From: an uncultured Alphaproteobacteria bacterium
GTDB lineage: Bacteria; Pseudomonadota; Alphaproteobacteria; MPNO01; DASWLB01
Reading direction: 5' to 3'
Length of the DNA: 64,000 nucleotides
NCBI GenBank assembly: GCA_963826605.1
Contig: CAWGXN010000004.1
Location: forward strand, 4,239 to 68,238
A program made the position numbers and the translations under genes. The notes under the pieces are model-generated. The model was not told the DNA's origin. It searched no databases and saw nothing but the letters and a program-made list of their open reading frames with translations. Positions 4,018 to 56,800 of this stretch are shown here, piece by piece (positions within the stretch are counted from its first letter, which is position 1; the number at the start of each line of letters is the position of its first letter).

Positions 4018-4374
4018 TTACTTCCCTTGGCCTCGTTCACGGCGCTTGGTGCGGCGGCGGGAGGCCAGGAACGCGAGCCGGGTGAAGTAGGCCTTGCGGG
4101 CAGCGGCTGCTCGGCGCTGCCGCTCCGGCTCGGGGAGACGGCGATCGGGGTCGACCTCGTCGAGGAAGCGCTTGAGGAAGGCCGCGCGGGCAGGCGCCGT
4201 GATCTGGCGCGCGTCGTATCGCGCGTGGACGACGTATGCGCCCATGCGGCCGCGGAGGCTCCGCTCGGCCGGCGTCAGCGAGTCGCGCCTCACCGAAGCG
4301 CCTCGTCGGCTTCCTCGGCGCCGCCGCTTCCGAGCAATCGGACCCATGCGGGTGAGCCCACGGGCGTGAGGCAC
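4018..4374 (-). CDS. Small basic protein typical of actinobacterial-type mobile elements. The start is ambiguous (4374 or 4347)
   Basis: Reads LTPAERSLRGRMGAYVVHARYDARQITAPARAAFLKRFLDEVDPDRRLPEPERQRRAAAARKAYFTRLAFLASRRR. It overlaps the 3' end of the replication-relaxation gene. Confidence 0.45.
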   Translation of the reverse strand: MPHARGLTRMGPIARKRRRRGSRRGASVRRDSLTPAERSLRGRMGAYVVHARYDARQITAPARAAFLKRFLDEVDPDRRLPEPERQRRAAAARKAYFTRLAFLASRRRTKRRERGQGK

Positions 4375-5167
4375 CTGCGGGTGGTCGGATCGGCGACGAT
4401 CGCCTCGAGCGGAACCGGTCCCCCGCTCCAGCCGATCGGCTGCGTCGGCGCCCGGAGTCCCAGCGTCCGGAGGTCATCGAGGACGAGGCCCCACGAGCAA
4501 TGGTCAAGCCCGGGCCGCGCGTCCCACCGGCCGATCCGTCGGAGCCAGCCGAGTCGCTCCTCGGTCGGAACGACCCAGAGTACGTGCCAGCCGGTCGCGG
4601 CTCGCCAGGGCCCGCTCGTAGGCCGCGAGCCGTCCTCGGATCGTCGGCGAGTGCTCCGTCGCCTCGTCGATCTCGAGGCAGAGGACCGCCGAGCCGCCAT
4701 CGAGCTGAAGGACGACGACACTGTCGGGACGCACGTCCGCGAGGCAGGACATTGTCGACCATCGGCTCGGTGAGCCAGAGCTGGACTGCCCGGACGCCGA
4801 TCGGACGAGCGCGCAGACGGCGTCGACGATGTCCAGCGAATGGCGGACGCTGACCGACTCCGCCGGTTCGCGTGTCGTGGTAGCCGAGGCGCTTGCTGCC
4901 ACGCCGGGTGATCCGGTAGACGACCGGGATGCCGCCGCGATCGGGCGCGAGCGGAGCACGCTCGAGGAGGCCGAGTTGCCAGAGCCGTCGGAGCCGGCGT
5001 AGCGCCGTTCGCCGGCTCGGGAAGATGAGGGAGGCGACCTGATCCCCTGTAGCCACGCCAGCGCGATACAACAGTCGCAGGCAGGCGCGATCTCGGACCG
5101 ACAGTAGCCCGACGTCCACGCTGGCCAGGAGCGTTCGTTCAGCGCTCTCGCGGAAGACGACAGTCAT
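4290..5167 (-). pseudogene. Replication-relaxation family protein, spread over three frames (about 4 frame breaks)
   Basis: ATG at 5167: MTVVFRESAERTLLASVDVGLLSVRDRACLRLLYRAGVATGDQVASLIFPSRRTALRRLRRLWQLGLLER. It continues as ESVSVRHSLDIVDAVCALVRSA, then VQLWLTEPMVDN, then VRPDSVVVLQLDGGSAVLCLEIDEATE, then GWHVLWVVPTEERLGWLRRI, in alternating frames. The breaks are near 4868, 4788, 4745 and 4597. Confidence 0.6.
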
Positions 5168-5282
5168 GGAAGCAGTCCCGTCGATTGGTCGGCCGGGACG
5201 CGCACAGGGCACCGGCACGGGCCTGACGCGGGTCGACCCACTCGCGCGCCACCCCGCGCGACGGTCCGCCGACAATCCCGCG

Positions 5283-7634
5283 TCATCGCCTGACCGTCCC
5301 GCGCGCGTCGGGCGTGCTCGGCGACTCGGCGCCACCCGCCCGCAGGAACACCTCGGCGCGAACCTCGTCGATCGGGCTTGCATCGCGAGCATCGCTGGCA
5401 GCCACGATCTCAGCGGCCAGGGCCGGGTCAGCCGGATCGGGCGGCAGGAGCATCCCGCCGTACGCCGTCGGCTGGCCGCCGCGCCCGGGCATCCGCATGA
5501 CGACCTCGTACGCACGGAGCGAGGTCAGTTCCTCGGCCGTCACTGGCGCGAACAGCCGGGCCAGGGTGCGGACATCTTCGGATCCCGGCGCGAGGAGCGC
5601 GATCGTGGCTGCGTTGGTCAGGACCGACCGGCTGAGACGCTCCCCCAGCCCGCCGAGCGACTGCGACGCGAGGCCGAGGGCAAGGCCGAACTTCCGGCCT
5701 TCGACCAGCGTGTTCTCGACCGCGCGAGTTGAGAACCGATGGGCCTCGTCGATGAGCAGCAGGTGCTGGCGACGGGCCGAGGGCGTGAGCTCCTGCCGCC
5801 CGACCGCGTCGACGTAGTAGCGGCTCGCCAGCATCGCGCCGAACAACGTCGCGTTGTCGCCGCCGACGCCGGACAGGTCAACGAGCAGCACATCGCCGCG
5901 ATCCATGACTTCGCGGGGCCGGATCGTCGACACGCCCTGGCCGACGACCATTCGGATCGAGTCGTACGTCACGAACGCGCCGAGCTTGTTGAGAACCGCC
6001 TTGATCGACGGGTCGCGATCGCGCTCGCCACCCGACGGCCACTGCGTCTCCCAGAACCCGCGGATCATCGGGTCCCGGAGGTGCTTGACGAACCGGGCAC
6101 GGAAGGCGTCTTCGGTCAGGACGCGGATCAGTTCCAGGATCGTCTGCGGCTGCTCGTCGGCGAGGAGCGTCAGCAGCGCGTTGCGCAGGTAGTGCTGCAT
6201 CTTCGGGCCGCAGAAGCGCGGCCAGAGGTCCTCGAGCATGTACACGAACTCCGACGCGACGAGCTGGTCGTCGCTGGGCGATTGGCGCTCGAGGAAGTTG
6301 AAGCCGCGAGGATGGGCGCGGTCCGCGAGGCGCAGCACGTGGACGCGGCCCGTCGCCGCGCGGGGGACCCGGCCGAGGACATCGTTCACGAGGTCCCCGT
6401 GCGGGTCGATGACCGTCGTCCCGATGTCGGCTTCGATCGCCGCCAGCGCGAGGTTGAGCAGCAACGTGCTCTTGCCCGACCCCGTCGCGCCTAGGGCCAC
6501 AACGTGCCGCGCCAGGATCCGATCCGGGATCGCAAGCGGTCGGCCGTGAGCCTCGCCGACGACGAGCCCGAGCTCGCCCGAGCCGCTGGCTGGCGGAGGT
6601 GCGGCGAGCGCCCGATCACGGGGGAAGCCGGCGCGATCGAATGACGCATCAGGCAGATACCACAGCTGTGCGAGCTCCCAGTCCGCCAGTCGGGCTGCCC
6701 GCGGCGCACGGGCCGGACCACGTCGGATGTCCCAGCGGAGCTCCTGTTGACCATCGCCCAGTGGGTGGGTGAAGTCGACCAGGCGCCACAGGAGCGCCTC
6801 CGACTGATCGGCTGGGATGCCGGCGACCTCGAGGATGAGACCGACGTCGAAACCGACGACGCCTCGGCCCTTTCGGGTCCGGGCGTCGCGCTCCTCCGGC
6901 AGAAGGACCGGCGCGGACGACTTCTCGCGGTAGTCGCTGTCGCGGAGTAGTAGGCCATCGATGATCGCGTTGCCGACGAGCTGGCCCATCGACGGGCTCG
7001 CGCTCGCGGACAGGGGCGCCGTGAGCCTGCGCCAGTCATCAGGCGGGACGGGTCGCGCGACAACCCGGAGACGGACCTCGGCGCCGTGTGGTGCGGACAC
7101 GAGGCCGGCCGCCAGTCGATGGAGGGCTCGAGCCTCCGGCTTGTCTACCTCCCGGAGCGGCCGGCTCGCCGATGAAGCCAGTCGAGCGACGCCCGAAGCC
7201 GCCGGCATGCGCGTGACCGGACCGGCGACGTCGACAACCGTCCCGGGGTACAGCGAGCGGAGCGCGTTCTCGACCAGGGTCGCCACCTGCCGGTTGGTGC
7301 CGACCTCCCAGCGGAGCCCGCCGTCGACATGGACGACCCGGAGCTCGATCGAGGGCCAGCCGGCGCGCCAGCCATCGAAGCCGCGGCGCTGTCGAGGATG
7401 GATGGCCCGGATGAGCTCGACCGCCAGATCGGGGTCGGGCGCTAGGCCGGCAGGCGCAGAGATGACCAGCCTGACGGCCTCCGCGCTGGACGCCTCGTCG
7501 TAGGCGCGCTGCCTCGACGCCCGGACGAGGGGTGGCCCAATCTTGGCGGCGCCGTAGGCGCCAAGGACGGCCAATACCGGCTGGATCAGCCCGGTCAGAT
7601 CGGGCAGCGGAAGCGGGACGAGCGGCTCTGTCAT
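5283..7634 (-). CDS. TraD/VirD4-like coupling-protein ATPase (FtsK/HerA-superfamily P-loop)
   Basis: 783 aa and intact. It has an N-terminal TM segment, Walker A GATGSGKST and Walker B LLLIDEAHRF. An AGGAGGA Shine-Dalgarno sequence lies 7 nt upstream of ATG 7634. Confidence 0.8.
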   Translation of the reverse strand: MTEPLVPLPLPDLTGLIQPVLAVLGAYGAAKIGPPLVRASRQRAYDEASSAEAVRLVISAPAGLAPDPDLAVELIRAIHPRQRRGFDGWRAGWPSIELRVVHVDGGLRWEVGTNRQVATLVENALRSLYPGTVVDVAGPVTRMPAASGVARLASSASRPLREVDKPEARALHRLAAGLVSAPHGAEVRLRVVARPVPPDDWRRLTAPLSASASPSMGQLVGNAIIDGLLLRDSDYREKSSAPVLLPEERDARTRKGRGVVGFDVGLILEVAGIPADQSEALLWRLVDFTHPLGDGQQELRWDIRRGPARAPRAARLADWELAQLWYLPDASFDRAGFPRDRALAAPPPASGSGELGLVVGEAHGRPLAIPDRILARHVVALGATGSGKSTLLLNLALAAIEADIGTTVIDPHGDLVNDVLGRVPRAATGRVHVLRLADRAHPRGFNFLERQSPSDDQLVASEFVYMLEDLWPRFCGPKMQHYLRNALLTLLADEQPQTILELIRVLTEDAFRARFVKHLRDPMIRGFWETQWPSGGERDRDPSIKAVLNKLGAFVTYDSIRMVVGQGVSTIRPREVMDRGDVLLVDLSGVGGDNATLFGAMLASRYYVDAVGRQELTPSARRQHLLLIDEAHRFSTRAVENTLVEGRKFGLALGLASQSLGGLGERLSRSVLTNAATIALLAPGSEDVRTLARLFAPVTAEELTSLRAYEVVMRMPGRGGQPTAYGGMLLPPDPADPALAAEIVAASDARDASPIDEVRAEVFLRAGGAESPSTPDARGTVRR

Positions 7635-7971: not shown

Positions 7972-8439
7972 CTAATTGAAAGTGCTGTCCCCGACTACTT
8001 GCCCCGCGTCGATCGTTGCTCTCCGCCGTTCGGCGATGTAGGCGGCCAGCTCAACTGCGCGAGGAATTGGGTCTGGACGGATCTCGTGCTCCCAGACCAC
8101 CAGGACCTCCCACCCCATTCTCGTGAGGACCTCGAGTACGCGTGCGTCGCGTTCCACGTTCGAAGTCAACTTCTCCTTCCAGAAGCCGGCGTTGGCTCGA
8201 GGCTGGGGCGGCTGGCACGTGGGACATTGGTGCCAGAAGCAACCGTTCACGAATACAGCCAGACGCAGCCGCGAAAAGACAACGTCAGGCCGGCCCGGAA
8301 GGCTCTCGTGAAGCCGGTAGCCGCGCACGCCCTGATGCCAGAGCGCGCGCCGAAAGGCGATCTCTCGTCGTGAGACCCGCTGATTGGCGCGCATGGTGTT
8401 CCGCGCGCCAATCGAACTCGCAGCCGGCGACTTTGTCAC
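7972..8439 (-). CDS. vsr: Very-short-patch repair endonuclease Vsr
   Basis: Reads PDVVFSRLRLAVFVNGCFWHQC...FWKEKLTSNVERD...GWEVLVVWEHE. GTG 8439 overlaps the dcm stop (GTGA at 8436-8439). Confidence 0.85.
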   Translation of the reverse strand: MTKSPAASSIGARNTMRANQRVSRREIAFRRALWHQGVRGYRLHESLPGRPDVVFSRLRLAVFVNGCFWHQCPTCQPPQPRANAGFWKEKLTSNVERDARVLEVLTRMGWEVLVVWEHEIRPDPIPRAVELAAYIAERRRATIDAGQVVGDSTFN

Positions 8440-9583
8440 CTTCGACGCTTGCCCGCCATTCTTTCTTCGAAGATCGGACCAGCGTAGTCGTAGATCACAT
8501 CGCCGAGCCACTTGAATTGCGGCACGACGACGGAGTTGCCGAATTGGCGGTAGGCGCGCGCGTCGGACATGGTCTCCGGGAGGATGAACGGTTTGCCGAG
8601 GTGCTCAGGCGTGAAGCCCATGAGCATCGCGCACTCCGCTGGCGTGAGGCGCCGCGGCCGCTCCGAGTCGCCGACGCGCAGGAGGATCTCTGCTCCATCC
8701 TTGTAGTAGCGAGCGCTCAGCGTCCGGGTGACCCCGTCGATCTCCGCGATCCCGTAGCCGAAGCCGTTGCCCTTGATCAGGTGCCTCGCCCGGTGCTTCT
8801 TTAGCGCGCGCCAGACCCCATCAGTGAGCCTGTACCTTTCGAGTTCGACGGGATCCTGCTCCAGGAGTTCCGCACGAAGCCGAGGCCCGTCGACCGCAGA
8901 GGGCGGGTCCGGAATTTCGAACCGACGCGGGAAGTGGCGCCGGTTGAGCCCCACGATGATGGTCCGCCGGCGGTTCTGGGGCACCCACGCCGCCGCGTTG
9001 ATCACCCGATGGCTCACGCGGTAGCCCGACCTCAGCAGGCGGCGCCGGATGACCTTGAACGTGCGGCCCTGGTCGTGCGAGAGAAGATGACGCACGTTTT
9101 CCAGGAGCAGAACGGGAGGAGCGTCCGTCGGCGGGGGGCTTGACGACAGAAACGCGTCCTCTTCGGCGTCGTCGTTCACGAAGGGTGCCTCGGCCTCGTG
9201 GCGCAGCTCGTCCGCTCCGATGTCCACGGGGCCGCCGACCAGCTTGATGATCTCGAAGAACAGGTTCCCCGACGTCGGGTCGTCAAACCCGTGTGCGCGC
9301 CCGAGGCTCTGCTTCTTGCTGACGCCGGCGATGCTGAACGGTTGGCAGGGGAAGCCCGCGCTGAGGATCTCGTACGGCCGCTGCTTCAGTTGATCCCTCG
9401 TCAGCGTGGTGACGTCGTCCCAGTCCAGCTCGCCCCAATTCTCTGCGTAGGTCTTGCGGGCGAAGCGGTCGATCTCCACCGAGAACGTGCACTCTCCACC
9501 CGCGCGTTGTAGGCCGCCCCGGATGCCGCCGATCCCCGCGAACAGGTCGACGAAGCGGAACCGGGGATCCGGGTCACGCGCAC
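8436..9583 (-). CDS. dcm: DNA (cytosine-5)-methyltransferase. The 5' end needs a 1-nt correction near 9565
   Basis: Motif I FRFVDLFAGIGGIRGG is at 9515-9560, upstream of the tracked ORF start at 9479. Motif IV is GFPCQPFS, followed by ENV and QFGNSV. GTG 9583 becomes in-frame if the C4 run at ~9564-9567 is really C5. Confidence 0.85.
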
Positions 9584-9641
9584 CGTCGCCTTCGAAATCG
9601 GTCAGGTCGACTCGGCGCGGCCGCCCGGATCGAGAGAGCCG

Positions 9642-11708
9642 TCATGAGGCGGCCTCGACAACGGCTTTGAAGCCGAGGCGCTTCGCCTCCTTGAGGATCT
9701 TCTCGCCCTGCACGGCCTGCTTCCGTGACGGCTTGCGTCCCGCCGCCGCCAGGCCGCCGAGGCTGAATGCGATGCTCCGCTGCCAGCCTTGCAGGTTCTC
9801 GGTCTCCTTCGCCCACTTCGAGATCTGGAACCATGTGCTCGGAGGCACCTGCGCCATCTCGTCGATGAGCGCCTGTTCCCCGGGCGACGTGTAGTCGGCA
9901 AGCGCCTCCGTGGCGCGACGCCTGCGCCCATCGGCCGCGCCGGACGAGAGGAGGACAGCAGCCGGCAGGGACATTGCCTCTGGGATGTCGAGCCCCTTCA
10001 CCCTCTCCCAGCACTCGGGCCGCTTCGACCACTCCGTGACGTTGCCGCCCCGTGGCGGGCTGATGATCACCTCACGGACGGCAATCGCGATCGCCCGAAT
10101 AGCGTCCTCCAGTTCCGGCCGCAGTCGTTGCTCGCGCCAGATGAGGTCGAGGTCGACGAGCTGGGCGGTCGTGTGGCTGAGGCACGCGACGGAGTACGCC
10201 ACGATGTTGGCGCGGTAGCCGCCGAAGTGCTGGCCCGTGACCAGGCGCTCTGTCTGGCGGAACAGGATGGCCTTCGCAATGAGCCGCTCGAAGTACTCCT
10301 GCGTTACGGCGACCGCTCCGCGTTCTCCCAGGCGGAGGGCGAAGTCCCTGAAGTTCTTCTCGGCACCGAGGCTGACGATGTGCGGGAGCGACGACCACGA
10401 GTTCTCGAACTTCGCCAAGTCCGTCTTCGTGAACTTCTGGGACGTCGGGTTGGTCGCCTTGAGGGCCTTCTGGCGCGCCGTGGTGACCTCGCGGGCCAGG
10501 GCGTCCTGGTACTGCCCACGCGCCCGCTCGTAGAACCAGTGCGTCTGCCGCTGGGTGCCGTCGACGGCTGGCGCCCAGACGGTCCGGGACAGCCGCTCGA
10601 GCTCAACGTGGTAGGGATCGTTCGCGGCGAAGTCGGCCTCGTTGACGCGGTTCTGGCTGTTGGCGAACTTCGTGATCTTGGGCACGAACGCGTCGAGCTT
10701 CTCCGGGGCGACAACCGTGATCTTGGCTGCGACTGCGAGGTGAGCGAGGTCGGCCGCGTCCCTCCGCCTCGCCGCGTGGATCGAGGCCGTCGTCTGGCCG
10801 CCGTTCACGATCTGCACGTCGTCCAGCGCGCCAACGCCGCGGGCGCCGCTGGTTGAGTCAAGACGGAGCCGCGACGCCGTGATCGAGATCCCGTTGTTGT
10901 AGGCGAGGAAGTGCTCGGGCTCCTCCAAGATCGTCTTCCGGATCCCTTGGTTCACCTTGCCGCGTGCTTGGAGGAAAGACCGGACGTTGCGCTCCAGCAG
11001 GCGTGGGCCGTACTCCTCGTAGATGTCAGCGAGCACAGACCCGGGTATTACAGCGAGGTACGCCGTGAAGTCCCCGTTGGCCGATCCGGCTGAGACGCAC
11101 GGGAGCGGCTCGCCGAACCGCGCTGTGAAGTCGATCGAGATGGGCTCCCTCGCGAGGCCCGAGGTTGCGGCGCGGAAAGTCCGCCGAAGGTCCCAGACGT
11201 GGAAGGAGACGATGACGTCCCCCTCCTGCTCGGCCTTGACCTCCTCAACAGTCGTGAGGCCGTCGGTGAGGAAGAACAGCCGCAGTGACCGGACGCTCGG
11301 GCCGAACGCGTGGATCGACTGGACCATATCGAAGGCCGGGGACGCCTCCTCCATGGTCTTGTGGAGACCGGCCCGCGACTTCCTGTAGAGCTCCCGAAGT
11401 CGGCCGAACGCCGTCGAAACCTCGCTTCTTGGCACGGTCGCGGGGGGCGTGGAGCCGGTGTACCGGGTAACCATCAGGTTCAGGGTGCCGAGCTCCTCGT
11501 CGACGCTGTAGCCGCTCGCCTCGAGGCCCCGCGCCTGGTAGAAGCACACGTCGGCGTCGTCGATCTCGCCCACGTCCGCGAGGATCCCGACCATCCACCT
11601 GGTGAACTCGTCATGGAGCAGAGCCCCCTCATCCGAGGCGTCGGCGGAGGCCAGGATGCCCTGCTGGACCTCGACGGAATAGGCGGCGAGGTCCTCGTCG
11701 AGGCTCAT
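9642..11708 (-). CDS. AIPR (abortive-infection phage resistance) family protein
   Basis: Reads RSFLQARGKVNQGIRKTILEEPEHFLAYNNGISITA...IVNGGQTTASI. ATG 11708 overlaps the upstream stop (ATGA at 11705-11708). Confidence 0.85.
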   Translation of the reverse strand: MSLDEDLAAYSVEVQQGILASADASDEGALLHDEFTRWMVGILADVGEIDDADVCFYQARGLEASGYSVDEELGTLNLMVTRYTGSTPPATVPRSEVSTAFGRLRELYRKSRAGLHKTMEEASPAFDMVQSIHAFGPSVRSLRLFFLTDGLTTVEEVKAEQEGDVIVSFHVWDLRRTFRAATSGLAREPISIDFTARFGEPLPCVSAGSANGDFTAYLAVIPGSVLADIYEEYGPRLLERNVRSFLQARGKVNQGIRKTILEEPEHFLAYNNGISITASRLRLDSTSGARGVGALDDVQIVNGGQTTASIHAARRRDAADLAHLAVAAKITVVAPEKLDAFVPKITKFANSQNRVNEADFAANDPYHVELERLSRTVWAPAVDGTQRQTHWFYERARGQYQDALAREVTTARQKALKATNPTSQKFTKTDLAKFENSWSSLPHIVSLGAEKNFRDFALRLGERGAVAVTQEYFERLIAKAILFRQTERLVTGQHFGGYRANIVAYSVACLSHTTAQLVDLDLIWREQRLRPELEDAIRAIAIAVREVIISPPRGGNVTEWSKRPECWERVKGLDIPEAMSLPAAVLLSSGAADGRRRRATEALADYTSPGEQALIDEMAQVPPSTWFQISKWAKETENLQGWQRSIAFSLGGLAAAGRKPSRKQAVQGEKILKEAKRLGFKAVVEAAS

Positions 11709-12709
11709 GCTGCCGCCCCTCTCCCTATGCGGGCCAACAGCGCGGGGAAGCCGATCTCGTGCTGCTTGCAGCTGTCGACTGCGACGCCATAGGAGACTTC
11801 GCCGACCCCCATGGGCAGGTCGTGCTCGGTTAGCCGCGGGAAATCCGTGCCGACCTCGCACGCCAGCGCCCATCGCACGTTGTACGAGGTGTGCCGGTAG
11901 CGCGACGCCTGCGGGTCGGCCCAGCCCGCCGACAGCAGCCGATCCTGCAGCAAGTCGAGGGCGGCGGGCTCGGACTGGACGGATGCCCGGGCTTCGACCA
12001 CGGCGTCGACCAGAGTCGGCGTGCCCCCTGTCCTCGGCTCGAGCGCGACGATGACGAGCCCCAGGAATTCGAGGCCGTCGGACTGGAGCTGGCGCTCACT
12101 GGCGATCCTCACAGCGGCAGGTGCCGCCTGCCGGGTCGTCTTGACCTCCACAGCCCACGCGCCGGTCTGGAAGTCCTGGAGGCCGCCGAGGGGGCCGCGC
12201 CACGTCCCCACGGCCGCGAGCCTCCCGGCCGTCGGGACCAGATGACCAGTCAGGAACCAGAGTTCGCCGAAGAGACCGGCCTGCTCGTCCGGCGAGAGTC
12301 CCTCCGGCGCGGTCTTCTCAAGGAATCGCTGCCAGTGCGCCAATCGCGCGGCGACCGCCTCGACCACGCTCCCCAGGGCTGCCGCCTCAGCCGCCAACAA
12401 GACGTCCTCGGCGAGTGCGGCGAAGATGTCGTTGTACTCCGCGGAGCTGGCCGCGAGCGACACCGTTGATCCGGAGACCGAGAGGGGGAACGGCGACTTG
12501 CTGACCTCGACCCCGCGCAGCCGCAGCTCGCGGAGGGGCGCGGCGTCGACGTCTTGGGGGAAGTCCATCGCCAGCAGTCGGCAGCCGGACGGCTCCGCCA
12601 CCGCGAGATAGAGGGCGACCGGCGCCTGGGAGTCGAGCTTGATCCGAAGGTGGCCGGCGCCCGTGGGCGCTGCCTTCTCGAGCTCGCGCCACTTGGCTTC
12701 GAGGGTCAC
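11705..12709 (-). CDS. PD-(D/E)XK motif protein (DUF4420-like nuclease fold)
   Basis: Reads GLFGELWFLTGHL...WRGPLGGLQDFQTGAWAVEVKTT. GTG 12709 overlaps the Z1 stop (GTGA at 12706-12709). Confidence 0.7.
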   Translation of the reverse strand: MTLEAKWRELEKAAPTGAGHLRIKLDSQAPVALYLAVAEPSGCRLLAMDFPQDVDAAPLRELRLRGVEVSKSPFPLSVSGSTVSLAASSAEYNDIFAALAEDVLLAAEAAALGSVVEAVAARLAHWQRFLEKTAPEGLSPDEQAGLFGELWFLTGHLVPTAGRLAAVGTWRGPLGGLQDFQTGAWAVEVKTTRQAAPAAVRIASERQLQSDGLEFLGLVIVALEPRTGGTPTLVDAVVEARASVQSEPAALDLLQDRLLSAGWADPQASRYRHTSYNVRWALACEVGTDFPRLTEHDLPMGVGEVSYGVAVDSCKQHEIGFPALLARIGRGAAA

Positions 12710-15433
12710 GCCTCGTCCTCCCACCCGAACTCGTTCGCGAGGTGCACCTGGTTCACTACGTACTCGATCTCCCGCTCGACGCCGCGGCTCGGGAAGCTGA
12801 CAGCTAAGCCGACGACCGGTCCGACCGACGTGTGTGCGTCGTAGATGCTCAGAGGGTAGAGGAGCAGCAGGCCGCGCTCGTGCGTCCGCTGCTGCCTCAC
12901 GGCCCAGCCGACGGGCACGCTCGGCTGCCTGGTGGCGACTCCGGCCTCCCGCCAGCGATCGACTGTCACTGCGAGGGCTCTGGCGCGTTCCTCGTCCGTG
13001 AGGTCAAGAGTCTCGTCGGCGGGGTTGACGATCCGCTTGATCGTGAGCGTGCCATTGGGGGCTAAGAGCTTGCGCATGACCAGTCCGACGCCGAGCCCTC
13101 CGATGCTGGCGCCCTTCGTCTCTTCGTCATCAACCGAAACCAGCGCCACCGTCCAGTCCGTCAGGTCTCCCGACACGGCGCTCGCCCGGATGAACTTGGC
13201 GATCGCCTTGGAGTCCGACTTGAGGACGTCGGGGTCGGTGCGGAAGTCTTCAAGGAAGTGCTCGACGGTCTCGGGGCTCACCTTGCGCCAGAGGCGGGTG
13301 GGCCGGGCCTTGCCGGCCGCCCTCGCGGACGGGGTCCAGTTCCGGCCGAGTTCGGCGACCAGCCGGTCAGTAGCGGCGAGGTTCCGCTCGATGTCGTCCT
13401 TGCGGAAGGTGATCGTCTCGGTCGTGCTGTCGCCGAAGGTGAGCCGCACCGTCTTGCTGTGCCGCAGTTTGCTCGGCGAGGTCACCATCAGTCCGTCGGG
13501 GCTCTTCCGGACCCTGCAGCCCGAAGGTCTCAGGCGTCTGGTGGGTGGCGACCATCTCGTCGAAGAGCTCCATCAGCTCCTCGTTCGCGAGGGTGATGTG
13601 CGCGTACCACCGAATGAGCTCGGGCGTCGAGTACAGCCGGCAGAAGTCCGAGTAGCCAGGCCGGTAGCCGAACCAGCGGCCCATCTGCATAAGCGTGTCG
13701 TACATGCGGGAGCCCGGAGGAAGTAGGTGACCGTGAGGCCCTCGAGCGTCAGGCCGCGGCTGAGCTTGTCGCCGCCGACGGCGATCACGGTGAGGCCATT
13801 CTCGGCGTTCTCGACGTAGTCGAGGACGTCTTTCGCAGTGCCGTTGACCTCCTTGACCCTGACGGCGGTGACGACGTCGACCACGTGCGCCCGGACGTCC
13901 TCCCAGCCCAGTGGCGAGGCAGCCCATGCCCTCGCTCGTCGGCTCGAAGTCCGTGTGCCACAGCCGCTCGAGTTCGTCCCAGGCCGACGGGCCGTCGCCG
14001 TCGCCGAACCGCAGTCGGCGGCGCAGGCGGTCCACCTCGTCCCCGATCGCCTCGACGAGCTGCCTCTGCACAGCGGTGAACCGGGTGACGTGGACCAGCA
14101 TGGAGTTGTGCGCGGCCAGCTGCCCTCGCGCTGCACGCGCCGCCGAAGCGAGCACAAAGGCGCGGATCGCCTCCGCCAGCGACTCAGGGAAGGGACCGAC
14201 GACGTGATCCTTCTTGTGCTTGGTCGGCAGCCAGTCCTCCGCGTCCTCCACTTGGCGCAGCAGGGGCAGCGGGTCGCGAGCCGGCTCCTCGCCGAGCGCG
14301 CGCTCGAGGCCGAAGACGCTCGTGGGGCCCATGTAGTTCGACGGGGGCCGGAGGTTGATGATGAAGCTGCGCGGGAAGAGTCCCTCGCCGATGGACGGCG
14401 AGTCGGCGTTGAACTGGCTGAGGATGTTCGCGAACGGGGTCGCGGTGTACCCGACGTAGGCCTTCTTCTCGAATGCGGCGAGCAGCGCACGGATCTGGCC
14501 GTTGATCGTGGAGGGTCGGATCTCCTCGTCCGGCGTCCCGTTCTCGTCGCGCGGGACGTCCTCGCGCACCTTCGACGTGTCTATCGAGGCGTTGTCTGCC
14601 TCGTCGTCGATTATTAGCAGGGGGACGTCGCGGACGACCTTGCGGCCCGTCACCGGATCTTCGACTTGGCGAAGGGTGGTCGCCCACTTCGTGACATTCG
14701 CCAGGATGGCCTTGTTCTTCTTGACGACCAGGAGCACGGGGTCGGCCCCGCCGACCATCACGTTCTGGGTACGCGCGACCTGGAGGCTGAAGTCTCCGTT
14801 GTCCGCACTGCTGGTAAGCGGGTGGACGTTGAGCAGTCCGTACCCTGTCAGCTCGCCGACTCCCATCCGGATGGTCTGGCTGTCCTTGCGCAGTCTGCGC
14901 TGCGTGTCGAAGCCCAGGAACCCCTCGTCGAGGCGAACCTGGGTCTGGCTCCGGAGGCTGTTGTGCAGGCCGGCAAGCACGATAACAAGCTTGTACCCGG
15001 CGTCAGCGGCCTTTGCGATGAGCCCGATGTACGTCGACGTCTTGCCCGACTGGACCCGGCCGACGACGAGTCCGCGCCTGTCCCACGCGCCGGATCGCTC
15101 CGGGTCCTCCAGGCGCCCAAGGATCTCGTCGGTCACGTCGTCGAGCCGGCGGACAACCGAACGCGGCCAGTTCAGCCGGCCTTCGAGGAAGGCCTCGTAC
15201 CGCTCCCAGAATTTCCAGTCGAGATCGGGCTTCCTCCCGCCGAGCCACTCCTTGTGGCCTCGGGGGTCATCGAGGATCTGGCCAGTTGGCACCCATACCA
15301 TGCAAAGGGTTTCGATCTCGCGGACGAGCTCCTCCAGGGTCGTGGCGTCGTCTGGATGGAACTTTCTCCACGCCTCGAGCGCCGTCCCCGCATACGACTC
15401 GATCTGCTCGGTCGTGGGGGTGTCGTCGAGCAT
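12706..15433 (-). pseudogene. Z1-domain protein (P-loop/helicase-like N-terminal part plus Z1 domain) with three frame breaks as sequenced
   Basis: ATG at 15433 (MLDDTPTTEQ). Motifs are GRVQSGKTS, LLIIDDEADNAS, GGDKLSRGLTLEGLTVTYFLR and MYDTLMQMGRWFGYRPGY. Frame changes lie near 13922, 13720 and 13514. The pieces are ORFs 13367..15520, 13573..14490 and 12706..13488. Confidence 0.8.
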
Positions 15434-15462
15434 CTGGAGCACGGAGCCGATGAGCCTGCGAT

Positions 15463-15540
15463 TTACTGAGCCTCCCCCTCGGACAGCACCGACGCGACGA
15501 CCTCTGGGTAGCGGTCGCACAGTTCCATGGTCCCCAAGAT
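15463..15540 (-). pseudogene. 3'-terminal remnant (~25 codons) of the gene preceding Z1, presumably the GHKL/MutL-like ATPase expected in this kind of system
   Basis: Reads ..ILGTMELCDRYPEVVASVLSEGEAQ* with TAA at 15463-15465. Everything upstream in that frame is Arg-rich out-of-frame EamA sequence. Confidence 0.3.
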
Positions 15541-15544
15541 GGCG

Positions 15545-15851
15545 GAACCACGCCGGTCGACACGCCGCGCTCGATCGCCTCGAACACGCCGATCAGATAG
15601 GCGCCGTTGAGCAGCAGCCCGGCGACCGCGATGTGCCCGCCCTCGGTGAGGCTGCGCGGCCAGGGCGCGCGCGTCCACAGCGCGATGACCAGCAGGATGG
15701 TGGCGGAGATGGCGAGCCGGACGGCGAGGAAGCTGAACGGCGGCGCGAAGGGCAGGCCGAGCCGCGCGAAGATGAAGCCGGTCGACCACAGCACGACGAA
15801 CAGCGCGGGTAGCGCGATGGCGGTGGCCGGTCGGGGCGGGGCGGGCAGCAT
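15545..15851 (-). pseudogene. EamA/DMT-family transporter with only the first ~100 codons present, truncated at the junction
   Basis: Reads MLPAPPRPATAIALPALFVVLWSTGFIFARLGLPFAPPFSFLAVRLAISATILLVIALW...LLLNGAYLIGVFEAIERGVSTGV, then becomes non-protein-like. Confidence 0.6.
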
Positions 15852-18575: not shown

Positions 18576-18586
18576 CGCGTCCGCGA

Positions 18587-18926
18587 GGGATGTTCCGCGC
18601 CCTATGCCGTTCGTGCTGAGTGCGGCCGAGCGGCGCGAGGCCGTGTATCGAAGTGCGAACGGCAGGTTTCGCACCCCGTCCGCTCTTCGATACGGCCCCT
18701 TCGGGGCCACCCAGGACGAACGGGGAATGAGGGCGCGGCTACTCCGCGAGCGAGGGGCGCAAGGGATGTTCCGCGCACTATGCCGTTCGTGCTGAGTGCG
18801 GCCGAGCGGCGCGAGGCCGTGTATCGAAGTGCGAACGGCAGGTTTCGCACCCCGTCCGCCCTTCGATACGGCCCCTTCGTGGCCACCCGGGACGAACGGG
18901 GAATGAGGGCGCGGCTACTCCGCGAG
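18587..18926. repeat. Tandem duplication (period 176 bp, ~164 bp shared, 4 mismatches) of a highly structured element
   Basis: The gggatgttccgcgc...ggctactccgcgag unit occurs twice. The internal stems are 18645-53/18685-93, 18654-60/18668-74, and ggcccc-ttcg-ggggcc at 18694-18709. Confidence 0.8.
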
Positions 18927-20195
18927 CTCTGCCAGCGCCTCGGTGCGGGCGCGGTGGTGCGGCACGAGGCTCTGCCACGTCTCGCCCGCGGCGAGCTCGG
19001 TATCGGCGACGCCGGTGATGCCGGTCATCGAGGGCAGCGGCGGCGGCGCCTTGCCGGCGGCGAGCTCGCGCGCGGCGGTCAGCAGCACGCGGCGCGTGTG
19101 GATCACCGCGGCGTCGGCCGGCACAAGATGCTCCTTCGTGCGGTCGAAGATCGGCCCCATCGACAGCGCGACCGCCGCGTCTTCCTGCTCCAGCCCGGCG
19201 AACCCGCCCCAGCGCTCGGCCATCGTCGAGCGGTCCTGTCCGAACCGGTTCGCCCACGTGCCGCGCCACTTGAAGTCGGATTCGGAATAGAGCCGCGAAT
19301 CGCCAATGCCCGACAGCGCGCGGTGATGCGTCCGCGCGTACGGCTCCTTCGAGTGGACGATGATGTAGGTGGAGGTGTTCTCGTCGTCGAGCGGCACCTC
19401 GAACAAGGTCGCGACGCGCGCCTGCGCCGGGATGATGCGCGCCGACGGCAGGATGAACGGCACGATGCGCACGCTCTGCCCGCCCGCAGGCGTCCTGCGG
19501 AAGGCGGCGTAGTGGAAGCCGAAATCGGTGGTCTCGATCGCGAGACTCGGCGCGTTGTCGTCGACGGCGAGCGCGCCCGGGTTCAGCGCGTCGGCGTTCG
19601 GCCTGAAGCCGCCCTGGTGCCAGCCGGGCCGCGCCTGGTCGGAATGCAGGATGCCGACATGCGACGAATCCATGCCGCCCTCGAGAAGCTGCAGATAGTT
19701 GCAGCGTATGTCGATGCGCTCGATGTTGCGGTGGCTCGCGGGCGCGCCGAGGAAGGCGAAGTCGGGCAATGGCGGCTGGGCGTCGGCCGGGCCGAAATAG
19801 CCCCAGATCAGCCCGCCCGCCTCCTGCACCGGGTAGGTCGCGGCGCGGAACTTGGCCATGAAGGCGGGGTTCGGGTAGTTCGGGCAGTCCACCAGCCTCC
19901 CCTCCACGTCGTACTTCCAGCCGTGATAGAGGCAGCGTATGCCGCACGCCTCGACGCGGCCGAGCGCGAGCGAGGCGCCGCGGTGCGGGCACAGCTCGTC
20001 GAGCAGGCCGAGCCTTCCCTCGGTATCGCGGAACAGCACGTAGTCCTCGCCGCCGAAGCGCGCGCGCACCGGGTCGCTGTCGCACCGGTCCACCTGGCTC
20101 GCCAGCGCGATGGGAGTCCAGTAGCGGCGGAACAGGCGCCCCATCGGCGTCTCCGGTCCCACCCGGCATAAAAGCTCGTTGTCCTCTTTACGCAT
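18915..20195 (-). CDS. Rieske [2Fe-2S] aromatic ring-hydroxylating oxygenase, alpha subunit type
   Basis: Reads CPHRGASL...CLYHGWKY. 426 aa and intact. Confidence 0.85.
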   Translation of the reverse strand: MRKEDNELLCRVGPETPMGRLFRRYWTPIALASQVDRCDSDPVRARFGGEDYVLFRDTEGRLGLLDELCPHRGASLALGRVEACGIRCLYHGWKYDVEGRLVDCPNYPNPAFMAKFRAATYPVQEAGGLIWGYFGPADAQPPLPDFAFLGAPASHRNIERIDIRCNYLQLLEGGMDSSHVGILHSDQARPGWHQGGFRPNADALNPGALAVDDNAPSLAIETTDFGFHYAAFRRTPAGGQSVRIVPFILPSARIIPAQARVATLFEVPLDDENTSTYIIVHSKEPYARTHHRALSGIGDSRLYSESDFKWRGTWANRFGQDRSTMAERWGGFAGLEQEDAAVALSMGPIFDRTKEHLVPADAAVIHTRRVLLTAARELAAGKAPPPLPSMTGITGVADTELAAGETWQSLVPHHRARTEALAELAE

Positions 20196-22060: not shown

Positions 22061-22174
22061 CCACCGGGCTGGGCGGCCGCCGGCCGCCGAGCCCGTCGCG
22101 CGACGAGACGAACGCTTCTTCGACCGAGTCATCGCCCGCGCGGCCTGAGCGGGCGGCAGCAAAATGGGGGCTTC

Positions 22175-24143
22175 GTGAACGACCACCCGCACCGCAACGG
22201 GCGGGGCGCGCAGCAAGAGGGCGGGCGGCGCAGCGCCCGCGCGACCGTCCTCGCCGCGGCCCTTGCCGTCTCCGTCCTTGCCGCATCCGGCAGCGCGCGT
22301 GCCTCGGTGCCGCCGGTCGAGGAGCTGCGCGACCTGTCGCTCGAACAGCTCGCCAATGTCGACGTGACCGGCGTGTTCAAGCGGCCCGAGCCGCTGAGCC
22401 GCACGCCGGCTTCGGTCTACGTCATCACGCGCGAGGAAATCCGCCGCTCCGGCGCGCGGACCGTTCCCGAGGCGCTGCGGCTTGCGCCGAACCTCGAGGT
22501 CGCGCGCCTCAACGGCAACACGTACGCGATCCAATCGCGCGGCTTCAACCTGTTCGAGCTGTCGAACAAGATGCTGGTCGCGATCGACGGGCGCACCCTC
22601 TACACGCCGCTCCATGCCGGCGTGTTCTGGGACCAGCAGCAGGTGCCCGTCGAGAACATCGACCGGATCGAGGTGATCAGCGGACCGGCCGGCACGGTGT
22701 GGGGCGCCAACGCCGTGAACGGCGTGATCAACATCGTCACGCGCGATGCGCACGACACGCAGGGCGCCTATGGGCGGCTCGATTTCGGCACGGCGGAGCG
22801 CGGCGCCACCGGCCAGTTCGGCGGCAAGTTCGGCGACGATGGCGCGTACCGCTTCTATGGAATGGGCTCCAACGTCGATTCGGTGAAGTCGCGCACGGGC
22901 GTCGACCGTCACGACAACTGGCACGGCCGCCAGGGCGGGTTCCGCGCCGACTGGGGAAGCGGGAACACCGCCTACAACCTCAGCGGCGACATGTTCAACA
23001 ACACCGAGAACGCGGCGCAGGTCGCGATCTCCGGCGCCAACTTCACCGGACACTGGACCCGCGAGATCGACGTCGAATTCTTCGGTCTCGCTGCAGGCCT
23101 TCTACGATCAGGTGAACCGGCGCCAGCCCGGGCTGGTCGACGACTTGAACACGCTCGACATCGAAGGACGGCACAATTTCCGCCTCGGTGCGAACCAGAT
23201 CGTCTATGGCGGCGGGTACCGCTTCTATCACAGCCGCTACGACGTGAACCTGTCCCCGGCGCCGCCTTTGTTCTTCCTGCTTTCGCCGGCTATCGAGAAC
23301 GTCCACCTGGTCAATTTTTTCGCGGAGGACAGCATCGCGCTGCGGCCCAGCCTGACGCTGACCATCGGCAGCAAGTTCGAGTATTCGACGTTCAGCGGCA
23401 TCGAGGTGATGCCGAGCGTCCGCCTCGCCTGGCAGGTGGCGCCGGATCACCTGCTGTGGGGCGCCGTGTCGCGGGCGGTGCGCACGCCCAGCATCCTGGA
23501 CCGGGACATCCAATCCAACGTTCCGCTCGTGGAACGCTCCGGCGGCAGTTTCGGCTCGGAAAGCGTCATCGCCTACGAGCTCGGCTACCGCGGAACGCTC
23601 AGCGAACGGGCACATCTTTCGGCCACGGTCTATGACGACGTCTACAGCGATCTGCGAGTCATCGAAAGCGACCCCAGTAGCGGCCAGTTCGTGTTCGGCA
23701 ATGCCCAGCACGGCAACGTCATCGGAATGGAAAGCTGGGGCGACTATCAGATCACGCCGCGTTGGCGGCTGATGGCGGGTCTCAACCTCCTCCGGAAGAA
23801 CCTGACCCTCACCGACAACGCGACCACACTGGCCCTGGTCCAGCACCAGGGGACCGACCCCCAATACCAGATGTTCCTGCGCTCCTATTTCAACATCACG
23901 CCGGATCTCGAGTTCGACGTGACCGTCCGGCGCGTCGATTCGCTCGACTTCAAGTCCGCGGTCGTGCCCACCTATACCGGGCTCGACATCCATGTCGGCT
24001 GGCATGCGACCGATCGGGTGGAGCTCGCCCTGGTGGGCCAGAATCTCGTTGCGCCCGACCATGTCGAGAGCGGCTATATCGGCAATGCCAGCAACGGGAC
24101 GGTGCCCCGGTCCGTCTATGCCAGCGTGAGCGTGAAGTTCTGA
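22175..24143 (+). CDS. TonB-dependent receptor (one frame break near 23072 as sequenced)
   Basis: The plug region reads TPASVYVITREEIRRSGARTVPEALRLAPNLEV...IDRIEVISGPAGTVWGANAVNGVINIVT. The barrel continues in ORF 23112..24143 (SLQAFYDQVNRRQ...) and ends with a terminal F. Confidence 0.85.
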
Positions 24144-32319: not shown

Positions 32320-32420
32320 CGTCCCTCGCCCCTGAAAGGGGAGAGGTCAGGAGGGGGGTCGGACCCCCACCCGCCGCCCGCTGCGCGGACGGCGACTTCC
32401 CCCTTCCAGGGGGAGGTGAA
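32320..32420. repeat. Cluster of GC-rich palindromic (REP-like) hairpins, family 1
   Basis: Hairpins are ctcgcccct-gaa-aggggagag, gggggtc-g-gaccccc and ttccccct-tcc-agggggag. Confidence 0.5.
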
Positions 32421-32865: not shown

Positions 32866-33104
32866 GTCCGTCCTCCTTCGATGACGGGCGGTGCGGCGGG
32901 CCGTCGGCCGGCCGGCACCGCGTCCGCTCCACAATATGGGGCGGGCAAATGTCGCCGTCGCCGGGGAGAGGAGACGGGTCGCGCAACGATCACGCCCGGT
33001 GACGCAGCGGGAATCGTCCATGAATTCAAAGGATTAGCGGGGGGCGTCGCTCGGCACGCACGGTCGCGCCGGGGGACTTTCGATCGTGCGCCGTCGGGCG
33101 CGGC

Positions 33105-34612
33105 TCAGGCCACCACCCGGCGCGGCTCGGCCGTCTCGTCCGCCGGCGGGGCGGCGTCGGCGCCGGTGAGGGCGGCGTAGATGCTCGGCATAGCGCTGGG
33201 CGGAGCGGTCCCAGCTCACGTCGCGCCGCATGGCGTTGAGCTGCATGCGCCGCCAGCCGACCGGCTCGCGGTGCAGGCGGCTGGCCTGGACCAGGGCGGC
33301 CGCGAAATCCTCCACCGTCGGCTCGTGGAACAGGAACCCCGCCGGCGCGCAGCGGTCGGCCGGGTCCTCAGGCGTGCCGGCGACGCTGTCGGCCAGCCCG
33401 CCGATGCGGCGCACGATGGGCAGCGTGCCGAACCGCATGGCGTACATCGGCGTCAGCCCGCACGGCTCGAAGCGCGACGGCGCGGCCAGCGCGTCGGCGC
33501 CGGCCAGGATGCGCCGCGCCAGATCCTCGCGATAGCCGATATGGACCGAGACCTGGCGGCGATGGGTGCGGCCGAGCTCGGCCAGCTCCGCCTCGAGCCC
33601 GCGGTCGCCCTCGCCGCAGACGATGAGCTGGCCGCCCTCGGCGATCAGCAGCGGCGCGATCTGGGGCAGCGCGTCGGCCATCTTCTGATGGGTCAGGCGC
33701 GACAGGAACGCGACAACCATGCGGTCGGGATCGACCTCCAGCCCGCATTCGCGCTGCAGCGCCGCCTTGCAGGCGCGCTTGCCCGACAGGTCGGACGCGC
33801 TGTAGGGGAAGGGCACGTCCGCCGGGTTGCCCGGGCGTCCAGCCGTCGTAATCGATGCCGTTGAGGATGCCGGTCAGCTCGCCCGCGCGGGCGCGCAGGA
33901 GCCCGTCGAGCCCGCAGCCAAATTCGGGCGTCAGGATCTCGCGGGCGTAGCGCGGGCTCACCGTCGTCAGGCGGTCGGCATAGGCGAGGCCCTCGCCCAG
34001 GAACGAGCTGTACCCGGCCGCCGGTACCAGCCCCAGCGGGCCGCGCAGCTCGGGCGCGATCGGGCCCTGGAAGGCCAGGTTGTGGATCGTGTGCACGGTC
34101 GCCGGGCGCGGGCCGTCCTGCTGGGCGAGCAGGGCGGGCGCCAGGCCGGCATGCCAGTCATTGGCGTGCACCACGTCGGCCGGCCAGGCCTGGGTGGCCA
34201 GCCGCGCGATCGCGTGGCAGAACAGCCCGAACCGGCGCCAGTTGTCGGGCCAGTCCTGGCCCTGCGGGTCGCCGTAGGGCGTGCCCGGCCGGCGGAACAG
34301 CTCGGGCGCGTCGACCAGCCAGACCGCGAGCCCCGAGCCGGGCAGGCGGGCGGGAACGAGATCGACCGCGCCGAGGCCAGGCGCCTCGCCGAGGGGGAAG
34401 GCTTGGCCCTTGTCCTCGGCGCGGTCGAAGGCGGACTCGTAACCCGGCATGACCAGCCGCACGTCGATCCCGAGGCGGGCAAGAGCTTCGGGCAATGCGG
34501 CGCTCACGTCGGCGAGACCGCCGGTCTTGGCGAGGGGATATGCTTCCGAGGTGGCGAAGAGCACCCGCGTCGACCGTTCTTTCCCGTCGTGGCGCGCGGC
34601 ATGCTGCGTCAT
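33105..34612 (-). CDS. glgA: Glycogen synthase (two frame breaks near 33835 and 33180)
   Basis: Reads VLFATSEAYPLAKTGGLADV...VHANDWHAGL...GILNGIDYDGW, then PFPYSASDLSGKRACKAAL...SRFEPCGLTPMYAMRFGTLPIV. The corrected tail reads IYAALTG..RRVVA*. Confidence 0.85.
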
Positions 34613-34696
34613 CTCATCACCTCTCCCTCGACATGCGCTCTCGCGGCGTCGCCGCGCGCTTTGCGCGTCGGCTCGGCCGAGACCTGATCTGGGTAC

Positions 34697-56649: not shown

Positions 56650-56800
56650 TTACCCCTCTCCCTGTCCCTCCCCCTCAAGGGGGGAGGGGACGTTGGTCCG
56701 AAGATCCTTCGCATCGACATGCGACGGAGTTGACAGCCAAGCACGGGCGCTCGTGCGCGCCCCCTCCCCCCTTGAGGGGGAGGGTTGGGGAGGGGGGTCC
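56650..56800. repeat. Two family-1 GC-rich palindromic units in opposite orientation
   Basis: 56652-56690 reads acccctctccctgtccctccccctcaaggggggagggga. 56761-56797 reads cccctccccccttgagggggagggttggggagggggg. Confidence 0.55.

What the first reader, a model, noticed from the sequence alone, without database searches (positions are those of the whole stretch)
7972..15540. Methylase-linked Z1 / DUF4420 / AIPR operon (Mza-like defence cluster) whose ATPase gene is cut off
Five minus-strand genes are co-directional: Z1 (12706-15433), a DUF4420-type PD-(D/E)XK protein (11705-12709), AIPR (9642-11708), Dcm (8436-9583) and Vsr (7972-8439). They are chained by overlapping stop/start codons (GTGA at 12706-12709, ATGA at 11705-11708, GTGA at 8436-8439), so they form one operon.

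Motifs read directly from the sequence:
- Z1: GRVQSGKTS, LLIIDDEADNAS, MYDTLMQMGRWFGYRPGY
- DUF4420: GLFGELWFL..QDF..WAVEVKTT
- AIPR: RSFLQARGKVNQGIRKTI..AYNNGISITA..VNGGQTT
- Dcm: FVDLFAGIGG, GFPCQPFS, ENV, QFGNSV
- Vsr: FVNGCFWHQC

From memory, a Z1 + AIPR + nuclease-fold + GHKL (MutL/MORC-like) ATPase set next to a C5-methylase was noted by Iyer, Abhiman and Aravind (2008). It was tested as Mza by Gao et al. (2020). The mechanism remains unknown.

This copy is unusual. The ATPase gene expected upstream of Z1 is reduced to ~25 codons by the 15.5-kb junction, and Z1 has three frame breaks. AIPR, the nuclease-fold protein, Dcm and Vsr are intact. It is either a decaying system leaving an orphan Dcm/Vsr pair, or an ATPase-less variant.
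Basis: partly seen in the sequence, partly recalled or inferred. Interest (0 to 1): 0.7.

Follow-up and report, generated by a model that had tools for sequence, protein, structure and literature searches.

The report
Truncated Mza defence operon with Dcm/Vsr
This is an ordinary copy of the known Mza anti-phage gene cluster, linked to a cytosine methylase, that has lost its first gene (the ATPase) at a rearrangement junction; its reading-frame breaks look like assembly errors that also hit housekeeping genes in the window.

Summary
The cluster is real. On the minus strand lie a 25-codon MzaB (GHKL ATPase) remnant, then MzaC (Z1 helicase), MzaD (DUF4420), MzaE (AIPR), Dcm and Vsr, all with strong profile matches.

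Metagenome relatives at 82-83% nucleotide identity carry the same operon with a 499-535 aa ATPase in front. Homology to four of them stops at window 15534-15539. There the ATPase tail abuts the first ~102 codons of a truncated EamA transporter gene.

No ATPase-less variant exists. In 80 species genomes, 66 of 82 relative loci have the standard ATPase>Z1>DUF4420>AIPR core and 2 more have it rearranged. No locus with a complete Z1 and room upstream lacks the ATPase.

The three Z1 frame breaks are real in the sequence.

Six comparable frame breaks split four housekeeping genes elsewhere in the window (a TonB-dependent receptor, glgA, xfp, leuA). The Mza genes show strong purifying selection and no excess change in this lineage. 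The breaks are therefore probably consensus indel errors, not evidence of decay.

Verdict: a known system, a 5'-truncated copy, low interest.

The parts
15546..15851 (-). N-terminal ~102 codons of a chromosomal EamA/DMT transporter gene, truncated at the junction
   Evidence: Pfam EamA 2e-7. Alignment with EamA homologues ends at ...GVSTGVV. tblastn homology ends at 15546-15549, and no remainder of the gene is found in the 64 kb.
15540..15546 (.). Rearrangement junction joining the truncated EamA directly to the tail of mzaB, with no filler; G+C drops from ~0.76 to ~0.65
   Evidence: No repeat or tRNA lies at the junction.
15463..15543 (-). Remnant of mzaB (GHKL/HATPase_c_3 ATPase): last ~25 codons plus the TAA stop
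   Evidence: It matches the C-termini of the intact ATPases of L001, L002 and L084. The L001 ATPase matches PADLOC MzaB at 6.5e-113. No other MzaB-like ORF is in the window.
12706..15466 (-). mzaC: SF2 helicase with Z1 domain. The canonical overlapping start (GTG or ATG in relatives) is GTA here; the first in-frame ATG is at 15433. Frame breaks lie at ~13920 (-5 nt), ~13711 (-1 nt) and 13515 (+1 nt).
11705..12709 (-). mzaD: DUF4420 PD-(D/E)XK-fold protein, intact ORF (334 aa)
   Evidence: Pfam DUF4420 6e-70 over profile positions 2-305 of 306; PADLOC MzaD 1e-18.
9642..11708 (-). mzaE: AIPR protein, intact ORF (688 aa)
   Evidence: Pfam AIPR 1e-97 plus AIPR_N 1e-38; PADLOC MzaE 8e-102. It keeps all columns invariant across 23 homologues.
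8436..9645 (-). C5 cytosine methylase (Dcm). Its start ATGA overlaps the AIPR stop, and one extra base in the variable first 28 codons puts that start out of frame. The catalytic body from motif I onward is an open frame.
7972..8394 (-). Vsr very-short-patch repair endonuclease (140 aa from ATG 8394; the ORF is open up to 8511)
   Evidence: Pfam Vsr 2e-15; PADLOC Vsr 5e-20. The start is placed by comparison with L001 and L083.
4037..7634 (-). Context only: TrwB/TraD/HerA-like coupling ATPase (5283-7634) and a Replic_Relax protein (4037-5515). These suggest the cluster is cargo of a mobile element.
   Evidence: GC3 is lower than in the core genes to the right.

Best explanation
The region is a 5'-truncated copy of a methylase-linked MzaBCDE operon, carried on horizontally acquired DNA.

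SHOWN
- In intact relatives the operon runs MzaB, MzaC, MzaD, MzaE, Dcm, Vsr. These are a GHKL/paraMORC-type ATPase, an SF2 helicase with a Z1 domain, a DUF4420 PD-(D/E)XK-fold protein, an AIPR protein, a C5 methylase and a repair endonuclease. The genes are tightly packed.
- In the window a rearrangement at 15540-15546 has removed the promoter region and all but ~25 codons of mzaB.
- The same junction has removed the 3' two-thirds of a chromosomal EamA gene.

INFERRED from family knowledge (Iyer et al. 2008; R-M logic; E. coli Dcm/Vsr)
- Dcm marks host DNA with 5-methylcytosine.
- The ATPase-helicase-nuclease module, with AIPR, acts against unmarked incoming DNA.
- Vsr repairs the T:G mismatches that arise when 5mC deaminates.
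- Without MzaB and its promoter, the restriction/defence arm is predicted to be inactive.
- Dcm and Vsr could persist as an orphan modification and repair pair, but only if transcribed by read-through from the co-directional EamA promoter.

MOST LIKELY ARTEFACT
- The four frame breaks (three in Z1, one in the Dcm 5' end) are most probably consensus indel errors of the assembly, not mutations.
For: IDENTITY
- Profile matches for all genes.
- The relatives' ATPase is MzaB at 6.5e-113.

SYNTENY
- L001, L002 and L083-L088 have the same gene order with intact genes.
- Nucleotide identity is 82-83% for L001 and L083-L088, and 74% for L002.
- 66 of 82 relative loci have the standard core and 2 more have it rearranged.
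- 64 of 68 complete loci have Dcm within 3 kb, and 45 of 68 have Vsr.

TRUNCATION
- Homology to four relatives stops at 15534-15539.
- EamA homology stops at 15546-15549.

ASSEMBLY-ERROR READING
- Single genes are split between frames, with contiguous Pfam coverage across the pieces. These are a TonB-dependent receptor, GlgA, phosphoketolase (two breaks) and LeuA (two breaks).
- A frame-plot scan gives about four further candidates.
- Z1 dN/dS is 0.074. The 66 codons between breaks 1 and 2, read in the repaired frame, give 0.077.
- There is no excess of amino-acid change in the window lineage compared with intact L001 (Z1: 27 vs 20).
- The Z1 pieces cover the whole profile.
- All six close relatives (L001, L002 and four Illumina-type contigs) are intact where they cover these genes.
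Against: - Frame-break density is higher in the cluster (4 in 7.5 kb) than elsewhere (6-10 in 48 kb).
- Break 1 is a 5-nt difference and break 3 is not in a homopolymer run.
- The canonical Z1 start codon is lost by a substitution (GTG to GTA), which indel noise does not explain.
- Together with the ATPase loss, these points fit real decay.
- The junction itself could be a mis-join; no reads are available.
- The mechanism of Mza has not been established. My literature searches found no mechanistic study.
Confidence: 0.72

Rival explanations
1. Genuine decay. After mzaB was lost, Z1 and Dcm picked up real inactivating indels and Z1 lost its start codon. The whole locus is a dying remnant and only DUF4420, AIPR and Vsr remain as open frames.
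For: - Four frame breaks plus the GTG-to-GTA start-codon change sit in one 7.5-kb locus that has already lost its first gene.
- The density is roughly 3 times that of the rest of the window.
- Other genomes hold degraded remnants (L013, L053, L059, L069).
Against: - The same kind of break splits leuA, glgA, xfp and a TonB-dependent receptor gene.
- Breaks also come in clusters of 2 per gene in those genes.
- dN/dS is 0.07-0.16 and no lineage-specific excess of amino-acid change is seen.
- No premature stops or missing segments occur in the repaired frames.
Confidence: 0.2
2. The junction at 15.54 kb is an assembly mis-join, or the contig is a chimera. In the real genome the Mza operon is complete and EamA is intact.
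For: - The assembly is demonstrably error-prone.
- Composition changes sharply at the junction.
- Everything left of it looks foreign: lower GC3, mobile-element genes and none of the REP-like elements seen on the right.
- The junction 30-mer was not found in public metagenome contigs.
Against: - No repeat at the junction could mislead an assembler.
- The join is clean, within a few bases, and lies inside two coding regions. This is typical of an illegitimate-recombination deletion.
- An island boundary also explains the composition shift.
Confidence: 0.07
3. An ATPase-less functional variant. Z1, DUF4420, AIPR, Dcm and Vsr work without MzaB, transcribed from the EamA promoter.
For: - The EamA fragment is co-directional and directly upstream.
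- The remaining genes are under purifying selection in pairwise comparison.
Against: - No such architecture is conserved. No locus with a complete Z1 and upstream room lacks the ATPase.
- The remnant tail of mzaB shows a loss, not a design.
- As assembled, Z1 and Dcm are out of frame.
- Most of the measured divergence predates the truncation, so the dN/dS values say little about selection since then.
Confidence: 0.02

Closest known systems
mzaABCDE (Mza) defence system: Gao et al. 2020 as cited in PMC9523054; PADLOC models MzaB-E
   Same: MzaC (Z1 helicase), MzaD (DUF4420) and MzaE (AIPR) match the PADLOC models, in the same order. Close relatives also have MzaB.
   Different: - MzaB is reduced to ~25 codons here.
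- No MzaA was found: no PADLOC MzaA match among the ORFs tested, and the ORF upstream of MzaB in L001 is Cas4-like.
- This clade is almost always linked to Dcm (64 of 68 loci) and often to Vsr.
MORC/paraMORC-associated R-M-like operons, type 3, of Iyer, Abhiman and Aravind 2008 (PMC2292703)
   Same: That paper describes an SFII helicase with a C-terminal DThhQXuRhFG-motif domain (the Z1 domain). With it come an RE-fold protein, a GHKL ATPase, a cytosine methylase, a Vsr endonuclease and AIPR. The window has MYDTLMQMGRWFGY, DUF4420, Dcm, Vsr and AIPR.
   Different: The GHKL ATPase that defines the class is missing here except for its tail.
Decayed type II R-M loci that leave an orphan m5C methylase with Vsr (for example E. 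coli Dcm/Vsr)
   Same: The modification and repair genes are retained while the presumed restriction arm is disabled (inference).
   Different: Dcm itself is out of frame at its 5' end in this assembly. Expression and activity are untested.

Membership tests
Mza (MzaBCDE core) | MzaB GHKL/HATPase_c_3 ATPase encoded immediately upstream of the Z1 gene | tested here: not met
   Only ~25 C-terminal codons remain. No MzaB-like ORF exists anywhere in the 64 kb. Relatives have a 499-535 aa MzaB.
Mza (MzaBCDE core) | MzaC: SF2 helicase with a Z1 domain | tested here: met
As assembled, the ORF is broken three times.
Mza (MzaBCDE core) | MzaD: DUF4420 PD-(D/E)XK-fold protein | tested here: met
   Pfam 6e-70; PADLOC MzaD 1e-18; intact ORF.
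Mza (MzaBCDE core) | MzaE: AIPR protein | tested here: met
   Pfam AIPR 1e-97; PADLOC MzaE 8e-102; intact ORF.
Mza (MzaBCDE core) | MzaA (described as a sigma-factor-like gene, present in only some systems) | tested here: not met
   No PADLOC MzaA hit among the window ORFs tested or the ORF upstream of MzaB in L001. PMC9523054 says MzaA is often absent.
Mza (MzaBCDE core) | Confers phage resistance | not testable with these tools
   Needs cloning and phage challenge.
Dcm/Vsr modification-repair pair | C5-methylase motifs I, IV, VI and X in one open frame with a start codon | tested here: inconclusive
   The motifs are present (FVDLFAGIGG, GFPCQPFS, ENV, QFGNSV) and the profile is covered over positions 21-392. 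The conserved start is out of frame by +1, possibly through assembly error.
Dcm/Vsr modification-repair pair | Vsr endonuclease adjacent to the methylase | tested here: met
   Pfam and PADLOC Vsr matches; intact ORF directly downstream.

The most novel reading that the evidence does not exclude
The truncation is real, and the remaining Z1-DUF4420-AIPR-Dcm-Vsr genes have been captured by the EamA promoter. They would then work as an ATPase-independent defence or epigenetic module, showing that the GHKL ATPase is dispensable for part of Mza function.
Probability: 0.03. Interest if true: 0.5.

Novelty: new member of a known kind. Interest (0 to 1): 0.15.

Why it matters
It matters little for biology.

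The practical lesson is about method. In this window, frame breaks cannot be read as pseudogenisation, because the assembly breaks housekeeping genes in the same way.

The survey adds two modest points:
- This AIPR clade of Mza is almost always coupled to a Dcm methylase.
- No conserved ATPase-less form exists.

Tried and rejected
- Exact-sequence look-up of the window's AIPR protein found no contig on record, so the source genome's own annotation could not be seen.
- A homologue search with the EamA fragment returned only short or partial proteins at 63% identity or less. No full-length orthologue or empty site was recovered, so what was deleted next to EamA remains unknown.
- The junction 30-mer has no exact match in public metagenome contigs.
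- Repeat, tRNA, promoter and terminator scans gave nothing at the junction.
- Gao et al. 2020 is not in the held library. The PADLOC paper's main text does not mention Mza. One literature search was swamped by journal DOIs containing 'mzab' and 'mzac'.
- I asked whether the 4-nt stop/start overlap between the ATPase and Z1 genes is conserved enough to make the GTG-to-GTA change telling. My script scored it as present in only 27 of 64 loci, and some of its frame calls looked unreliable, so the argument is weak.
- My first crude GC3 'tail' heuristic for frameshifts was too noisy because of antisense shadow frames. I replaced it with a six-frame plot and Pfam checks.
Full report
**Observation**

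The quoted motifs are all present. So are the three overlapping stop/start tetranucleotides.

Profile searches leave no doubt about the families:
- DUF4420: Pfam 6e-70, PADLOC MzaD 1e-18.
- AIPR plus AIPR_N: Pfam 1e-97 and 1e-38, PADLOC MzaE 8e-102.
- C5 DNA methylase: 5e-60.
- Vsr: 2e-15.

**Relatives and the truncation**

Homologues of the AIPR protein are abundant. Contigs of the closest ones carry HATPase_c_3 (499-535 aa), Z1 (921-922 aa), DUF4420 (334 aa), AIPR (686-689 aa), Dcm (401-416 aa) and Vsr, with all genes intact. These are L001 and L083-L088, at 82-83% nucleotide identity, and L002 at 74%.

The ATPase of L001 matches PADLOC MzaB at 6.5e-113. Nucleotide homology between the window and L001, L002 and L084 begins at window 15539-15534, about 76 nt before the ATPase stop codon, even though those contigs continue upstream. 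The surviving peptide...ILGTMELCDRYPEVVASVLSEGEAQ*, matches the relatives' C-termini.

Immediately to the right lie the first ~102 codons of an EamA transporter gene on the same strand (Pfam 2e-7). Its homology ends at 15546-15549, and the rest of the gene is nowhere in the window. One junction, precise to a few bases, therefore truncates both genes.

G+C drops from ~0.76 to ~0.65 across the junction. No repeat or tRNA flanks it. No second MzaB-like gene is present in the 64 kb.

**Is there an ATPase-less variant?**

I fetched 80 loci from species-representative genomes with an AIPR alignment. I built HMMs for the six proteins from L001 and L002 and iterated them on the loci.

With L001 and L002 that makes 82 relative loci, and they divide as follows:
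- 66 have the core in the standard order ATPase>Z1>DUF4420>AIPR.
- 2 have the same genes in a rearranged order (L054, L066).
- 6 are cut by contig ends.
- 4 are a different two-gene Dcm>AIPR arrangement.
- 4 are degraded remnants inside long contigs (L013, L053, L059, L069).

No locus with a complete Z1 and room upstream lacks the ATPase. The window is thus a truncated copy, not a variant design.

Sampling was anchored on AIPR, so only remnants that keep AIPR could be seen. In this clade 64 of 68 complete loci have a Dcm within 3 kb, on either side and in either orientation, and 45 of 68 have a Vsr.

**Frame breaks**

Against L001 and L002, Z1 lacks 5 nt near 13920, lacks 1 nt at ~13711, and has 1 extra nt at 13515. 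The four in-frame pieces cover Z1 profile positions 8-502, 510-581, 582-648 and 645-918, so nothing else is missing.

- Its Dcm (8436-9583) is 1148 nt. Read from GTG 9583 it hits a stop after 60 codons.
- In five relatives Dcm starts at an ATGA overlapping the AIPR stop, with exactly 84 nt before the FRFVD motif. The window has the ATGA (9645-9642) but 85 nt.
- No ATG, GTG or TTG lies in the Dcm frame upstream of motif I.

In addition, the Z1 start codon that overlaps the ATPase stop is GTG in L001 and L084 and ATG in L002, but GTA in the window. That overlap appears in only 27 of 64 loci, so this is weak evidence.

**Are the breaks real?**

A six-frame GC3 plot, checked with Pfam on the ORF pieces, shows that single housekeeping genes elsewhere in the window are split between frames. 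In each case domain coverage runs contiguously across the pieces:
- TonB-dependent receptor: Plug domain | barrel positions 110-436, break near 23023.
- GlgA: Glyco_transf_5 | Glycos_transf_1, break near 33827.
- Phosphoketolase: XFP_N 2-110 | XFP_N 102-350 | XFP plus XFP_C, breaks near 44398 and 43682.
- LeuA: HMGL-like 1-137 | HMGL-like 135-256 | HCS_D2 plus LeuA_dimer, breaks near 57277 and 57695.

That is six verified breaks, with about four more candidates (29732, 61970, 62740, 63311), in ~48 kb. They often come two to a gene, as in Z1.

The Mza genes show no sign of relaxed selection:
- dN/dS against L001 is 0.074 for Z1, 0.16 for DUF4420, 0.079 for AIPR and 0.12 for Dcm. The 66 Z1 codons between breaks 1 and 2, read in the repaired frame, give 0.077.
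- With L002 as outgroup, amino-acid changes unique to the window do not exceed those unique to intact L001. The counts are Z1 27 vs 20, DUF4420 17 vs 22, AIPR 22 vs 26 and Dcm 12 vs 17.

The most economical reading is that this assembly carries indel errors and the Z1 and Dcm breaks belong to them.

A real, very recent decay is not excluded:
- Break density is about three times higher in the cluster.
- Break 1 is a 5-nt difference.
- The start-codon change is a substitution.

Only reads can settle this.

**What it is and how it works**

This is a 5'-truncated, Dcm/Vsr-linked MzaBCDE locus on acquired DNA. To its left lie a TrwB/TraD/HerA-like ATPase (5283-7634) and a Replic_Relax protein (4037-5515). 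Their GC3 is lower than in the core genes.

The operon type was described by Iyer, Abhiman and Aravind (2008). It comprises:
- an SFII helicase with a C-terminal DThhQXuRhFG-motif domain;
- an RE-fold protein;
- a GHKL ATPase;
- cytosine methylases;
- Vsr;
- AIPR (PMC2292703).

PMC9523054 cites Gao et al. 2020 for the experimentally validated mzaABCDE and notes that mzaA is often absent. Mza is routinely catalogued, for example 1338 instances in one Pseudomonas hotspot (PMC12629846). I found no mechanistic study.

The following mechanism is inferred, not shown:
- Dcm marks self DNA.
- The ATPase-helicase-nuclease module, with AIPR, acts on unmarked DNA.
- Vsr repairs deamination damage at 5mC.

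Loss of MzaB and the operon's upstream region should disable the defence arm. Dcm and Vsr could remain active only through read-through from the EamA promoter.

**Verdict**

This is a known system and an unremarkable truncated copy. The 'ATPase-less variant' idea is rejected. The 'decay' argument from frame breaks is undermined by the quality of the assembly. Interest is low.

Noticed in passing
window 22061-24143 (+), 33034-34696 (-), 42327-45478 (-), 56776-58412 (+): Housekeeping genes are split between reading frames, with contiguous Pfam coverage across the pieces. They are a TonB-dependent receptor, glycogen synthase GlgA, phosphoketolase (two breaks) and LeuA-type isopropylmalate synthase (two breaks). 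This suggests assembly-wide indel errors.
   Followed up: yes
window ~29732, ~61970, ~62740, ~63311 (all minus strand): Further candidate frame breaks appear in the GC3 frame plot. They lie in or near a VTT-domain gene, a FAD_binding_3 monooxygenase and a luciferase-like monooxygenase. They were not individually verified.
   Followed up: partly
window 18582-18927: Two direct copies of a 170-nt unit (97% identical, start-to-start spacing 176 nt) lie between a DctP-type solute-binding protein gene and a downstream minus-strand ORF (18915-20195). It duplicates a short ORF segment.
   Followed up: no
window 32323-32359, 39592-39719, 56651-56798, 59260-59407: Short G/C-rich repeats (CCCTCCCCCCTTGAGGGGGAGGG...), some forming inverted pairs, look REP-like. 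All lie right of the 15.54-kb junction and none in the left 15.5 kb.
   Followed up: no
window 4037-7634 (-): A TrwB/TraD/HerA-like ATPase (weak PADLOC mad8 and HerA hits) and a Replic_Relax-domain protein lie directly downstream of Vsr. They are likely the transfer module of the mobile element that carries the Mza cluster.
   Followed up: partly
L054 and L066 (Micromonosporaceae, Actinoplanes); L024, L030, L031, L041: Two alternative architectures appear around AIPR relatives. One is a rearranged order, AIPR>ATPase>DUF4420>Z1, with an extra ATPase and Vsr/Dcm upstream. The other is a minimal Dcm>AIPR pair with no Z1, DUF4420 or ATPase.
   Followed up: no
L013, L053, L059, L069: Other genomes hold degraded or 5'-truncated Mza remnants inside long contigs. 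In L053, for example, only Z1 profile positions 789-913 remain, followed by DUF4420, AIPR and Vsr. Loss of the ATPase end is therefore not unique to this window, although sampling was anchored on AIPR.
   Followed up: partly
L001 1-732 (+): In the closest intact relative, the ORF upstream of MzaB is a Cas4-like PD-(D/E)XK nuclease (PADLOC Cas4 9e-11), not MzaA.
   Followed up: no
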